Below are positions 27,033 through 50,150 of a DNA stretch of 64,000 nt, piece by piece. The stretch covers positions 25,296,001 to 25,360,000 of the forward strand of contig OZ024764.1 of assembly GCA_964016885.1 (NCBI GenBank), given 5' to 3'. The position numbers were made by a program, and so were the translations under genes. Numbering within the stretch: position 1 is the first letter of the stretch; each line of letters begins with the position of its first letter. This DNA is from Eledone cirrhosa. Its lineage: Eukaryota. The notes beneath the pieces are model-generated. The model was not told where the DNA came from and made no database searches. It worked only from the letters and a program-made list of their open reading frames with translations.

Positions 27033-27782
27033 TTAGTTATGTAATAAATAACATAAGATAATTATTTCATTTACCAGTGGTTTCTTGAAGGCAGATGTTA
27101 TGTCTGTCTTCAGTCGTCAGAATGAAAAAATAACATGGTGTTTTTATTAAATATGGATTTAAAAACAAAATTTAGGAAATATGAAAGTGAGGCTGAAAAG
27201 AACCGGCAAAAAGGAATAAGGGAGAAAAATATAAAAATAAATATCCAGATCATAAACAAACACACACTCAACTACACGCTTATACGTAATAGTACGTAGA
27301 CGGATACTTTCTCACATAAGTGTAATTGTGTCTACATGGAAATACGAACAGGCACATAAATACATACACATACATATACACAGATATATGTGCACTCAAA
27401 TATGTACACACAAACACACATTTACACATTTAAAGGGGGTGTACACACACATATACATACATACATGTTTGTACTTCCATGTAGACACAATTACACTTAC
27501 GTGAGAAAGTATACGTCTACGCACTGTTACGTATAAGCGTGTAGTTGAGTGTGTGTATGTTTATGTTCTGGATATTTATTTATATATTTTTCCCCCTTAT
27601 TCCTTTTTGCCGGTTCTTTTCAACCTCACTTTCATATTTCCTAAATTTTGTTTTTAAATCCATATTTAATAAAAACACCATGTTATTTTTTCATTCTGAC
27701 GACTGAAGACAGACACAACATCTGCCTTCAAAAAACCGCTGGTAAATAAATAATTATCTTATGTTGTTTATTACATAACTAA
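27033..27782. repeat. Foldback element, about 320-bp inverted arms around a CA/TA-rich spacer, hammerhead motif in each arm
   Basis: 27033-~27350 is the reverse complement of ~27465-27782 with scattered mismatches. Confidence 0.95.
27065..27127 (-). ncRNA. Type I hammerhead ribozyme motif with intact core
   Basis: Minus strand TTTCATT CTGACGA c-TGAAGACAGA-cataaca-TCTGCCTTCA-a GAAAC cactg GTA AATGAAA: perfect 7-bp stem I, long stem II, short stem III, GUA site. Confidence 0.8.
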
Positions 27783-27845
27783 TAGGCTCTGTAGCCTTCA
27801 TAGAGCACTCTTTTTTCCTGTACCTTTCTGACGGAAATACTTCAT

Positions 27846-28076
27846 TTATATATATATATATATATATATATATATATATATATATATATATATATATATA
27901 TATATATATATATATATATATATATATATATATATATATATATATATATATATATATATATATATATATATATATATATATATATATATATATATATATA
28001 TATATATATATATATATATATATATATATATATATATATATATATATATATATATATATATATATATATATATATA
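27846..28076. repeat. (TA)n, about 115 units
   Basis: Direct reading. Confidence 0.99.
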
Positions 28077-28385
28077 GGAGGCACATGGCTTAGTGGTTAG
28101 AACATTGGCCTAGCAATCGAAAGGTTGTGAGTTCAATTCTCAGACCGGGTGATGTGTTGTCTCCTTGAGCAAGACACTTTATTTCACATTGCTCCAGTTT
28201 ACTCAGCTGTAGAAATGAGATGTTAGGGACTGGGGTCCCTATTATTCCACTGCAAAGTGGTCGTGGAGGTGCTACGGCAAAAAAGCACCCAGCACTCACT
28301 GTAAATGAGGTTGGTGTTAGGAAGGGCATCCAAAATCAAGCCAGCATCAGTTCCCGTCCCACCCTTGCAAGCAGGGAAAATGAAA
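28077..28385 (+). mobile_element. tRNA-derived SINE with RTE-derived 3' part
   Basis: A box TGGCTTAGTGG, B box GAGTTCAATTC, central CCTTGAGCAAGACACTTT, tail GTTGGTGTTAGGAAGGGCAT shared with the RTE family A 3' UTR. Confidence 0.85.
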
Positions 28386-28444
28386 TATATGAATACATAT
28401 TTGTATAATGCTATGCTTGAAGCGAATTCCTATTTATATATATT

Positions 28445-47054: not shown

Positions 47055-47173
47055 ATGAAAACTCCAATAATAATCAATGGCTGGATGACAATTCTCGACC
47101 GAAATACTTAGAGTTGAAAAATGATGTTGCTAAAATATACAGCAAATACCAGTTGAAATCACAAACCGAGACT
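47055..47173 (+). CDS. M13 peptidase exon (ENSNNNQWLDDNSRPKYLELKNDVAKIYSKYQLKSQTET)
   Basis: tttcag acceptor, gtaagt donor; phases 1 and 0 fit; corresponds to the WW..S...F....C...QY segment. Confidence 0.88.
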
Positions 47174-47308
47174 GTAAGTTATCATCATTATCACCATCAT
47201 CATCATCATCCATGATTAATGTCTATTTTCCATACTTACATGGGTTAGATAGACTGTCACGTTATGGGGTTAACCAAACCAGGTAACCATGTGTTGCTTA
47301 TACAGATT

Positions 47309-48880
47309 CATCATCATCGTGTAGTGTCCATTTTTCCTGCTTGCAAGGGTTGAACATATTGTCACAGACTTGGTGTATTTTATCATGGCATTAATACCAG
47401 GTAAGTTATATACTTGGCATAGCTGAAGATCCTCCAAGCTCTTTCTTTGGCAAGTATTCTATAGCTAGGTGCCTCTTCTATCACCAACCACAAGTGTACT
47501 GGGCAATTGTTTATTGTGTAATTAACACTTAAGAAGATGCCATGTCCTTGGTATAACTGAAGTTGTCTATAGTTAGGTACCTTTCCTATCACCAACACTT
47601 GGTATAACTGAAGTTGTCTATAGCTAGGTACCTTTCCTATCACCAACACTTGGCATAACTGAAGTAGTCTATAGCTAGGTACCTTTCCTATCACCAACAC
47701 TTGGTATAACTGAAGTAGTCTATAGCTAGGTAACTTTCCTATCACCAACACTTGGTATAACTGAAGTTGTCTATAGCTAGGTACCTTTCCTATCACCAAC
47801 ACTTGGCATAACTGAAGTTGTCTATAGCTAGGTAACTTTCCTATCACCAACACTTGGTATAACTGAAGTTGTCTATAGTTAGGTACCTTTCCTATCACCA
47901 ACACTTGGCATAACTGAAGTTGTCTATAGCTAGGTACCTTTCCTATCACCAACACTTGGCATAACTGAAGTTGTCTATAGCTAGGTACCTCTCCTATCAC
48001 CAACACTTGGCATAACTGAAGTTGTCTATAGCTAGGTACCTCTCCTATCACCAACACTTGGTATAAATGAAGTTGTCTATAGCTAGGTACCTCTCCTATC
48101 ACCAACACTTGGTATAAATGAAATTATCTATAGCTAGGTACGTTTCCTATCACCAACACTTGGCATAACTGAAGTTGTCTATAGTTAGGTACCTTTCCTA
48201 TCACCAACACTTGGCATAACTGAAGTTATCTATAGCTAGGTACCTTTCCTATCACCAACACTTGGTATAACTGAAGTTGTCTATAGCTAGGTACCTTTCC
48301 TATCACCAACACTTGGTATAACTGAAGTTGTCTATAGCTAGGTACCTTTCCTATCACCAACACTTGGTATAGCTGAAGTTGTCTATAGCTAGGTACCTTT
48401 CCTATCACCAACACTTGGTATAGCTGAAGTTGTCTATAGCTAGGTACCTTTCCTATCACCAACCACTTTACACAAGTGTACTGGGTGATCTTTTATCATG
48501 TGGATCACAAGAACTAGGGAAGCCCTGATGGACCTTTGTCACCTCTGTTGTGGGATTCAGCTTCTTAAAGTCAGTCAGCCCTCACTACCTAATCCTATGA
48601 TTTCTTGGGTCTGCCTCGTCCATGAGTTCCATCCAGTGAGATTTCTTTGCACCTCTTTATACAGCTGTCATCCTACATGTACACCTCATGTCCATTCCAT
48701 TACAGTCTTTTTCTGGCACAACATATCCAATTCAGCTCATGCCAAGTTTTGCTCACAACTCACTTATGCTGTGTCGTTCATGCACACTAATATTACACAT
48801 CTGAGCATACATACATCATTTTTTTCTAGCCTTCTCAGGTCTTCTGCAGTTAAGGCCCATATCACACTGCCATTTTATTC
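47309..48880 (-). mobile_element. Old RTE family A-like 3' fragment containing a minisatellite
   Basis: (GAT)n tail at 47309, 3' UTR-like sequence, and ORF remnant (AEDLRRLEKND) at ~48600-48875. Confidence 0.6.
47547..48462. repeat. 51-bp minisatellite, about 18 copies
   Basis: Unit CTTGGTATAACTGAAGTTGTCTATAGCTAGGTACCTTTCCTATCACCAACA. Confidence 0.97.
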
Positions 48881-49876
48881 ATAATCTGTCATAATACATA
48901 TTTCTACGATCGTAATAATTACTTAATGCTGCCATCACACAACCATTAACACGACTTCATCAGACAACATCTTACATAATATGATTGTTATTGTAACATT
49001 TCTAATACAATACAGTCTATTGGCAAGGGGATGGACAAATTCAGTCTTGGACCTATAACAGTCCGTCCCCTTATACATGATGATAATAATTTAATGTCTA
49101 CTTTCCCGGCTAGCAAGGGTGGGATGGGTCTTTGCAGACTGAGTCTGTACTAAAGCATGGCTACTGAATCTCGGAGAAGCCAAAGGCTCACATTTCACTT
49201 ACATACAGTTCCATCTTCTATCAAGTCCATTTTATCATGGCACCAACACAAGAGAGGCTGTCATGTCTTTGACACAATGATAGATCAACAGCTGGATGCC
49301 CTTCCTATCACCAACTACTTCACAACATGTACTGGGTCTGTTTATCATATAGATCACCAACACTAAGAAAACTGTTGTGTTCTTGACACAACTAAAGGGT
49401 TCTCCATCCCTTTGTTTGGCAACCTTTCTATGGCCAGATACCCTTCTTATAACCAACCACTTCACAACATGTACTGGAGGTGTTTATCGTATGGCATCGC
49501 TAGCAGGGCCACCTCTGTATTAATGTTTTATCTCAATTGCTTGTTTATATTTTACTATAACCCAATAGGGATTACTTATCTAAATCTTTTATATTCAATA
49601 CATCTGTTGACAAATGTCTTGTGTCATGGTCTGATGATGTAAGCCAACCACAGAAATATGTATTATGTTATCGTGTAACAATTAAAGAGGTGCGTGGAAT
49701 ACGACTTTCTTGTATTTTCATTGAACTTTGTATGTGTGTGTATATATTGTTATACTTTGTGTGTGCGTGTGTGTCTGTGGGGGGGGGGGGGTCATGCTCC
49801 CAATAAACGAAATATGTATATATATATATATATATATATATATCACCATCATCATCATTTTACATCCACTTTTCCC

Positions 49877-50150
49877 TAATAAACAAAAGATAGTTACTTT
49901 AGATCATCTCTATTTTATTATATATATTTCGAATAATCCAAAACATGTTCTCATCAGACAAAATACATAGAAGATGCATAGGAGATGCAGGATCTCTCCA
50001 GCTTATTTGACCGCCAGTATATCACAAGAAACCTACGTCTTCTATGTATTTTGTCTGATGAGAACATATTTTGGATTATGTTATATATCAGCTTTGCATC
50101 TTCAAAATATAAAATAGAGAAGATCTAAAGTAACTATCTTCCATTTATTA
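49877..50150. repeat. Small foldback with hammerhead-bearing arms
   Basis: AAGATAGTTACTTTAGATC/GATCTAAAGTAACTATCTT and TGTTCTCATCAGACAAAATACATAGAAGA/TCTTCTATGTATTTTGTCTGATGAGAACA. Confidence 0.9.
49911..49965 (-). ncRNA. Minimal type I hammerhead motif, same family as 31098-31163
   Basis: Minus strand TATTTTGT CTGATGA GAA..TTC GAAA TATATA TA ATAAAATA; stem II is weak. Confidence 0.7.

What the first reader, a model, noticed from the sequence alone, without database searches (positions are those of the whole stretch)
27033..50150. Non-coding foldback elements capped by outward-facing hammerhead ribozymes
Seen: four palindromes (27033-27782, 28445-30575, 30851-31206, 49877-50150) have a CUGANGA-stemII-GAAA-stemIII-NUH type I hammerhead motif near the outer arm ends, intact or degenerate, reading away from the centre. 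Three share the frame TATTTT(G/A)T...GAAATATATATA. A fifth (35308-35455) has only 3' halves. They mostly abut (TA)n, as do the two Penelope elements here. Known: Penelope-like elements carry minimal hammerheads with palindromic stem III in their pLTRs and often form inverted pLTRs; metazoan retrozymes are direct tandem hammerhead repeats. Inference: these are ORF-less inverted-pLTR units. They are either repeated abortive PLE insertions or a non-autonomous, bidirectionally transcribable ribozyme-hairpin element class that annotation would label as DNA MITEs.
Basis: partly seen in the sequence, partly recalled or inferred. Interest (0 to 1): 0.75.

Follow-up and report, generated by a model that had tools for sequence, protein, structure and literature searches.

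The report
Head-to-head Penelope ends with hammerheads
The five DNA hairpins are back-to-back, cut-short 3' ends of protein-coding Penelope-like jumping genes (three linked directly, two through a chain of matches), each end carrying an intact or damaged predicted hammerhead ribozyme; the layout is already described, each hairpin is likely a one-off insertion rather than a mobile unit, and the two halves were likely copied separately from the two cut DNA strands.

Summary
The palindromes and outward-facing type I hammerhead motifs are real, but only 4 of 8 arms keep an intact core, and only P3 keeps both. No Rfam hammerhead match was found.

They are not a new non-coding class. Each arm is the 3' end of a coding, (TA)n-targeting PLE family with Hydra-clade motifs: P2, P3 and P4 directly, P1 across nested inserts, P5 by a homology walk. 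P2 even keeps the last ~28 codons.

Centres differ from locus to locus. P3's junction is unique among 20 hairpins, and 29 of 29 outward-facing pair spacings differ. The repeats I examined are segmental duplicates or independent microhomology joins.

The tail sits on the shorter arm about half the time (8 of 16), and arms of one hairpin are usually identical. This favours two-primer integration over simple snap-back (inferred).

The layout and opposite-strand hammerhead pairs are in print. This scan noted the same on other DNA many times. Cleavage and expression are untested.

The parts
27033..27350 (-). P1 short arm: 5'-truncated PLE 3' end, no tail; intact predicted hammerhead (C3 at 27120, predicted cut after 27072; unpaired base before stem II)
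27351..27782 (+). P1 long arm; hammerhead core from 27696 with GAAA changed to AAAA
27783..27846 (+). P1 tail (family has two 3' end points), then (TA)n
28438..29138 (-). P2 short arm; hammerhead with most of stem II deleted
29139..30624 (+). P2 long arm: last ~28 codons of the PLE endonuclease (to about 29232), 3' UTR, SINE-like insert at about 30068-30256, hammerhead lacking CUGAUGA
30625..30712 (+). P2 tail, then (TA)n shared with P3
30759..30844 (-). P3 tail, 86 nt, 100% identical to the sequence leading into the ORF of coding copy L032
30845..31028 (-). P3 left arm; intact predicted hammerhead (C3 at 30951, predicted cut after 30902)
31031..31212 (+). P3 right arm, no tail; intact predicted hammerhead (C3 at 31106, predicted cut after 31155)
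35209..35307 (-). P5 tail
35308..35450 (.). P5 hairpin: both arms truncated inside the long stem II of the family hammerhead; centre at a TGATCA palindrome
49877..50150 (.). P4 hairpin: left arm (-) with intact predicted hammerhead (C3 at 49957, predicted cut after 49919); right arm (+) has lost GAAA; lies in an intron of an M13 peptidase-like gene
50160..50450 (+). SINE-like insert (absent from the two segmental duplicates L164 and L165), then the probable P4 tail at about 50367-50450
31219..34780 (-). Neighbouring coding PLE (frameshifted RT and GIY-YIG frame) with a direct pLTR pair and an inverted 5' end at 34367-34780; same layout with an ORF

Best explanation
Each palindrome is two 5'-truncated 3' ends of a coding Penelope-like retrotransposon family, with Hydra-clade protein motifs, joined head to head in (TA)n, and was likely made in one integration event in which both cut target strands each primed a cDNA. 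Shown: arm identity to the 3' ends of coding copies; centres that vary between loci; a tail on exactly one arm; near-identical arms within a hairpin. The hammerheads face outward simply because each sits ~110 nt from the family's 3' end. Inferred: the GIY-YIG endonuclease nicks both strands of (TA)n; RT starts at two internal RNA sites 65-100 nt apart (one arm with the tail, one without), probably on one RNA; both cDNAs stop early and are joined at 0-2 nt of microhomology. The product is a dead stub. Its read-through RNA is predicted to be a long duplex that hides the ribozymes. Odds: identity as PLE stubs about 0.93; two-primer mechanism about 0.6.
For: P3 arm plus tail is 99-100% identical to 40 scored loci. 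Locus L032 shows inverted copy + pLTR + 686-codon RT/EN frame + 3' pLTR. PLE coding sequence lies upstream in sense in 21 of 29 P2 loci and 8 of 27 P4 loci. P1 links through L236 and L238 across nested inserts. P5 links by a walk to EN and RT fragments in L291, L292 and L299. There are 6,198 exact copies of the P3 hammerhead 3' half. Among the first 100 on C1, 29 outward-facing neighbours versus 1 inward-facing, all 29 spacings different, 153-4,327 nt. Of 26 such pairs mapped, 10 hold ORF sequence, namely 10 of the 11 with a long arm over 1,950 nt. 20 hairpins centred like P3 have 18 distinct junctions, and P3's is unique. Tail on exactly one arm in 16 of 16 (7 long, 8 short, 1 tie), and in 23 of 27 C1 pairs by script, 25 of 27 on reading the flanks. 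Within-hairpin arm distance is 0 in 11 of 16, versus 12% of 480 between-hairpin pairs. PMC11167929 reports that a PLE protein nicks and extends both strands and starts RT at two sites that bound the tail. Whole-P3 folding gives probability 0 for hammerhead stems I and II.
Against: No Rfam hammerhead match, and no cleavage or RNA data. Stem I of the isolated P3 motif is not favoured in the monomer fold. Pfam and PDB gave no hit for the ORFs, so PLE identity rests on motifs and layout. None of the P3-family frames examined was complete. The P1 link crosses nested insertions in only two loci, and the P5 link is a chain of 70-85% matches. Several junctions are perfect or near-perfect mirror points, as self-priming would give. 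Arm identity could also come from later gene conversion. One hairpin (L128) had 48 differences between its arms and was not inspected. The two-tail cases L144 and L151 are read as arms running on into tandem copies (ORFs present); this was not mapped base by base.
Confidence: 0.85

Rival explanations
1. Same identity (PLE stubs), but the second arm is made by self-priming or fold-back of a single strand, as proposed for rotifer PLEs with an antisense template.
For: Junctions often fall on short palindromes (TGCA, TCGA, TGATCA), and some are perfectly symmetric. Arms share private variants. PMC3846280 (Discussion passage) argues for self-priming from palindromes at inverted junctions.
Against: A fold-back copy cannot hold sequence that its template lacks, yet the shorter arm alone carries the tail in 8 of 16 hairpins. 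The same junction occurs with opposite tail sides in L137 and L138. Overlap at clean junctions is only 0-2 nt (null mean 0.66).
Confidence: 0.2
2. A non-autonomous hairpin element with a fixed centre, transcribed in both directions, cut by its own hammerheads and moved by PLE enzymes.
For: Identical junctions occur at two pairs of loci with different flanks, between P5 and L076, and at one unexamined pair on C14. ORF-less hairpins are common (16 of 26 pairs). Non-autonomous PLEs exist (PMC8557442 passage).
Against: The examined repeats differ in private variants mirrored on both arms, in tail side or in outer ends. The P4 repeats are segmental duplicates. No same-junction copy was found in 29 P2 loci, 28 P1 loci or 25 non-duplicate P4 loci (the one P1 and one P4 locus spanned by a single hit have shifted centres). 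Lengths grade continuously into ORF-bearing copies. Predicted duplex folding removes the ribozyme.
Confidence: 0.04
3. Two separate insertions that landed next to each other, or one insertion later duplicated as an inversion, with arms homogenised by gene conversion.
For: PLE ends nest densely in (TA)n here. P1 arms (95%) are closer to each other than to any other scored copy (at most 92%).
Against: Orientation is 29 outward versus 1 inward. Junctions abut with no TA spacer. The one-tail rule holds.
Confidence: 0.08
4. MITEs of a DNA transposon, with incidental hammerhead-like words.
For: Inverted arms without an ORF and TA flanks resemble MITEs (definition in a PMC8969392 passage).
Against: The ends are unequal (one tail), centres and lengths vary, and the arms match retroelement 3' ends. 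The core is kept in all four families sampled while the stems differ.
Confidence: 0.01

Closest known systems
Insertion unit of endonuclease-positive PLEs (Craig et al. 2021, PMC8557442: abstract, passages, Fig. 2 legend; Arkhipova et al. 2013, PMC3846280: passages)
   Same: Heavy 5' truncation, partial tandems forming pLTRs, an adjacent inverted 5'-truncated copy head to head, a tail at only one end, microsatellite targets.
   Different: Tails here are about 65-100 nt, not 30-40. In these five both arms are truncated before, or just inside, the ORF end.
Hydra clade of PLEs (PMC8557442 section 11 passages; supplement row Hydra-1_Obim, 2,507 bp, (TA)n)
   Same: RWK/RWR, DKT, CxCX5C linker, C-terminal GIY-YIG-type domain without CCHH, CxxC and CxH around the conserved E and N, canonical hammerhead, (TA)n target.
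   Different: The P3 unit is 3.8 kb with a long 3' UTR (Hydra 'generally <3 kb'). No tree or sequence comparison with named Hydra families was made.
Minimal PLE hammerheads (Cervera and de la Pena 2014, PMC4209133: parts 1-2 of 4 read)
   Same: Type I, long stem II, palindromic stem III, often an unpaired base before stem II. The paper reports dual min-HHRs about 100-700 bp apart on opposite strands, read as truncated PLEs.
   Different: Stem I is 7-8 bp in P1, P3 and P4 (4-5 bp in the paper's S. mansoni families), and P3 has A-U in place of the G10.1-C11.1 pair. Activity was not tested here.
Metazoan non-LTR retrozymes (bioRxiv 10.64898/2026.07.22.740005: part 1 of 5 read; PMC7229834: search listing only)
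   Same: Type I hammerheads; PLE-related.
   Different: Retrozymes are direct tandem arrays with a hammerhead in each unit. These are inverted pairs that continue into coding elements.
PAc Poseidon element in vitro (Frangieh et al. 2024, PMC11167929: parts 1-2 of 4 read)
   Same: Both strands nicked and extended, AT-rich target, two RT start sites bounding the tail, predicted dimer.
   Different: Different clade. In the parts read, it does not derive the inverted layout or test tail side against arm length.

Membership tests
EN+ PLE insertion | Arms are 3' ends of an element coding RT plus GIY-YIG | tested here: met
   Direct for P2, P3, P4; indirect for P1 and P5. Domain identity is by motif; Pfam and PDB gave no hit.
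EN+ PLE insertion | Variable 5' truncation, fixed 3' end | tested here: met
EN+ PLE insertion | Inverted 5'-truncated copy adjoining head to head | tested here: met
EN+ PLE insertion | Tail at one end only | tested here: met
   16 of 16; 23 of 27 by script, 25 of 27 on reading
EN+ PLE insertion | Target-site duplication | tested here: inconclusive
   Flanks are (TA)n, so a duplication cannot be discerned
Hydra clade | RWK and DKT motifs | tested here: met
   RWR + DKT in L032, L033 and L034; RWK + DKT in the window's PLE at 31219-34780
Hydra clade | CxCX5C linker, no CCHH, CxxC and CxH around E and N | tested here: met
   Linker in L032, L034, L196 and the window's second PLE; CxxC/CxH in L034, L196, L291. 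Only EN-end fragments were seen for the P1 and P5 families.
Hydra clade | (TA)n insertion and hammerhead in the pLTR | tested here: met
Hydra clade | Length generally under 3 kb | tested here: not met
   The P3 unit in L032 is 3,832 nt; the paper gives this as a tendency only
Hydra clade | Placement in the RT phylogeny | not tested
Type I hammerhead | Core boxes with stems I-III | tested here: met
   4 of 8 window arms; family copies passing: P1 16 of 28, P2 14 of 24, P4 9 of 27, P5 3 of 29
Type I hammerhead | Match to an Rfam hammerhead model | tested here: not met
Type I hammerhead | Self-cleavage at NUH | not testable with these tools
   Needs an in vitro assay
Non-LTR retrozyme | Direct tandem units, each with a hammerhead | tested here: not met
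   Inverted pairs; same-direction neighbours lie 3.8-4.4 kb apart, about one coding unit
MITE or mobile hairpin unit | Same ends and centre at many independent loci | tested here: not met
   (sampled loci, not a census)

The most novel reading that the evidence does not exclude
PLEs integrate by obligatory double target-primed reverse transcription. A protein dimer nicks both strands of (TA)n, and each end primes on the same RNA at one of two fixed start sites. Every insertion therefore has one tailed and one tail-less end, and these thousands of hairpins are a genomic record of that step, with inner ends enriched near the RNA start. This would replace the self-priming model for the inverted pLTR.
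Probability: 0.5. Interest if true: 0.6.

Novelty: new member of a known kind. Interest (0 to 1): 0.27.

Why it matters
Practically, such hairpins should be annotated as PLE 3'-end pairs, not as MITEs or a ribozyme-element class. One family alone leaves over 6,000 exact hammerhead half-motifs in this genome. Mechanistically, how PLEs make inverted pLTRs and the one-sided tail is called open in PMC8557442 and PMC3846280. The tail falling on either the long or the short arm, with arms sharing private variants, gives a countable genomic test and a clear in vitro prediction. The finding as posed (a new element class) does not hold.

Tried and rejected
Rfam scans gave no hammerhead. Pfam on six PLE frames and PDB on one gave no hit. 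Sequencing runs: no RNA holder listed; no reads were laid, so this says nothing on expression.

Pattern searches for tail read-through into an ORF gave 7 loci for P1 and 6 for P5, none running from the tail into an ORF. Twelve longer P5 regions showed no sense ORF; the link came only from the next walk. A count of 0 of 29 was a script error and was replaced by 21 of 29.

A pile-up of centres at a putative RNA start is only weakly supported. There are 20 hairpins with ends about 175-195 nt from the 3' end against 14 in the neighbouring window, 5 of them with P3-subfamily letters. In the unbiased C1 set, 8 of 26 short arms end at 136-151 nt. No start site was mapped.

A bias towards breaking the host-sense hammerhead (broken on + in P1, P2, P4; intact in P3 and at 49631) rests on too few cases. 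The sixth palindrome (62557-63528) was considered as a MITE control and dropped, because it is the end of a larger element.

Literature searches. None listed a paper describing a fixed hammerhead-capped hairpin element class, and none of the 12 papers listed holds both 'twin priming' and 'pseudo-LTR'. The library lacks most subscription papers. The bioRxiv supplement was not seen; its family tables might bear on related repeats.
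Full report
OBSERVATION. The window is G000:C25:25296001-25360000 of a 3.0-Gb genome; I did not determine the organism. Self-comparison confirms five palindromes, called P1 (27033-27782), P2 (28438-30578), P3 (30845-31212), P4 (49877-50150) and P5 (35318-35450). 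A strict type I hammerhead descriptor passes P1 left, P3 left, P3 right and P4 left, all reading away from the centre, with stem I of 7-8 bp and a palindromic stem III. P1 right has GAAA changed to AAAA, P2 left has lost most of stem II, P2 right lacks CUGAUGA, P4 right lacks GAAA, and P5 holds only 3' halves. Five cores in 12,302 nt compare with a mean of 0.017 in 300 shuffles; the descriptor was written after I had seen the motifs. Family copies pass it in 16 of 28 (P1), 14 of 24 (P2), 9 of 27 (P4) and 3 of 29 (P5) loci, with the core kept while stems differ. Rfam finds no hammerhead.

WHAT THE ARMS ARE: P2, P3, P4. P3's left arm plus 86 further bases is 99-100% identical to 40 scored loci. 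In L032 the same sequence precedes and follows a 686-codon frame, with an inverted, shorter copy at the 5' end; L031 and L033 are similar. The 86 bases are the start of the coding unit, that is, the PLE tail. P2's one-sided centre begins with the last ~28 codons of the endonuclease, and 21 of 29 loci holding that centre have PLE coding sequence directly upstream. For P4, 8 of 27 loci do.

WHAT THE ARMS ARE: P1, P5. P1 showed no upstream ORF within 1.5 kb in 28 loci. L236 and L238, however, join an ORF end and 3' UTR to a P1-type end across nested insertions. P5 showed none in 29 loci or in 12 longer regions. A further upstream walk reached endonuclease or RT fragments in L291, L292 and L299 of 20 loci. 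These two links are indirect.

CLADE. The proteins carry RWR/RWK, DKT, a CxCX5C linker, a C-terminal GIY-YIG-type domain without CCHH, and CxxC/CxH around the conserved E and N. These are the Hydra-clade features listed in PMC8557442 (passages), whose supplement lists Hydra-1_Obim as (TA)n-targeting. The Hydra lead came from an earlier scan note, and I checked it by motif only. Pfam and PDB gave no hit, and no tree was built. None of the P3-family frames examined was complete.

IS THE HAIRPIN A MOBILE UNIT? The P3 hammerhead 3' half occurs 6,198 times exactly. Among the first 100 places on C1, 29 neighbours face outward, 1 faces inward and 6 face the same way within 6 kb; all 29 outward spacings differ, from 153 to 4,327 nt. 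I mapped 26 of the 29. Short arms run about 136-1,374 nt and long arms up to 3,557 nt, and 10 contain ORF sequence, 10 of the 11 longer than 1,950 nt. Twenty hairpins are centred like P3; they have 18 distinct junctions, and the window's is unique. The two repeated junctions have different flanks, but each locus carries its own variants mirrored on both arms, and L137 and L138 have the tail on opposite arms. Fourteen hairpins in the neighbouring window show 13 junctions; the repeated pair on C14 was not examined. P4's two look-alikes are segmental duplicates. No P2 locus of 29 spans the same junction, and the single P1 and P4 loci spanned by one hit have shifted centres. P5 shares its junction with 1 of 19 other hairpins, which has a different outer end. 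These are samples, not a census.

MECHANISM. Every window unit has a tail on one arm only (weak for P4). In 16 P3-type hairpins (15 of the 19 other loci, plus the window) the tail is on exactly one arm: 7 on the longer, 8 on the shorter, 1 tie. In 27 C1 pairs the script gave 23 one-tailed and 4 two-tailed. Two of the four are false positives on reading the flanks, and two are read as arms running into tandem copies. Arms within a hairpin are identical over 160 nt in 11 of 16 cases and differ by one change in 4, with one uninspected outlier; between hairpins 12% of 480 pairs are identical. A single fold-back cannot put the tail on the shorter arm alone (inference). Two primings from the two nicked strands, at two start sites on one RNA, account for all three patterns. 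PMC11167929 (parts 1-2 of 4) shows a PLE protein nicking and extending both strands of AT-rich DNA and starting RT at two sites that bound the tail. The rival, self-priming, is proposed in PMC3846280 (passages) and fits the mirror-like junctions. Gene conversion may add to arm identity. An earlier scan note worded the two-primer idea before I ran this test, and many others repeat it; they are not independent support.

RIBOZYME FUNCTION. Folding the whole P3 palindrome gives probability 0 for stems I and II, whereas the single arm keeps stem II at about 0.67 and does not favour stem I. A read-through RNA is therefore predicted to be a long duplex, not a pair of active ribozymes. PMC4209133 (parts 1-2 of 4) reports no monomer and low dimer activity for a metazoan minimal motif, and already notes dual motifs 100-700 bp apart on opposite strands, attributed to truncated PLEs. 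P4 lies between two M13 peptidase-like exons (both scores just under the Pfam cut-off). Expression is untested.

VERDICT. These are new members of a described kind. The residual interest is the testable two-primer reading of how PLEs build inverted ends.

Noticed in passing
window 62554-64000 (continues to G000:C25:25367000): End of a Helitron-like element on the minus strand, with a 221-bp inverted repeat (62557-62777 / 63309-63528). 3.0 kb is 99.5% identical to a locus on C1 with a different flank; frames beyond the window match PIF1 and Helitron_like_N.
   Followed up: partly
window 49620-49680 (+): A further type I hammerhead motif that passes the descriptor (C3 at 49631), outside any palindrome; among fetched loci it matched only the segmental duplicates.
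   Followed up: partly
window 61660-61790 (+): Another descriptor match (C3 at 61670) about 0.8 kb after the second coding PLE; not linked to it.
   Followed up: partly
window 43045-43128, 58465-58566 (+); candidates near 35843 and 52980: Exons of an M13 peptidase (neprilysin-like) host gene; the two candidates are my reading and gave no Pfam hit.
   Followed up: partly
window 31219-31351 and 34496-34628 (-): The pLTRs of the adjacent coding PLE have a GAAA-stem III-GUA half but no recognisable CUGANGA in either copy.
   Followed up: no
window about 48370-51650; G000:C25:5622719-5626017 and 7159652-7162950: At least 3 kb around P4 is present in two more places on the same contig at 87-91% identity, both lacking the SINE-like insert, which dates that insert after the duplication.
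   Followed up: partly
window 30068-30256, 50160-50360, 52537-52708: Three copies of a ~190-bp SINE-like repeat (label from my own knowledge); two are inserted in PLE arms, and it recurs in many fetched loci.
   Followed up: no
L236 (G000:C3:207137000-207146000): A P1-family head-to-head insertion expanded to 7.7 kb by nested PLE fragments in its TA-rich UTR, including a whole P2-like hairpin.
   Followed up: partly
window 1-15200, 39570-42560, 44006-46897, 47547-48468, 51372-52380, 53575-56117, 57229-58418: Seven long minisatellite arrays, and LINE-like RT fragments at about 15.4-26.8 kb and 36.4-39.2 kb.
   Followed up: no
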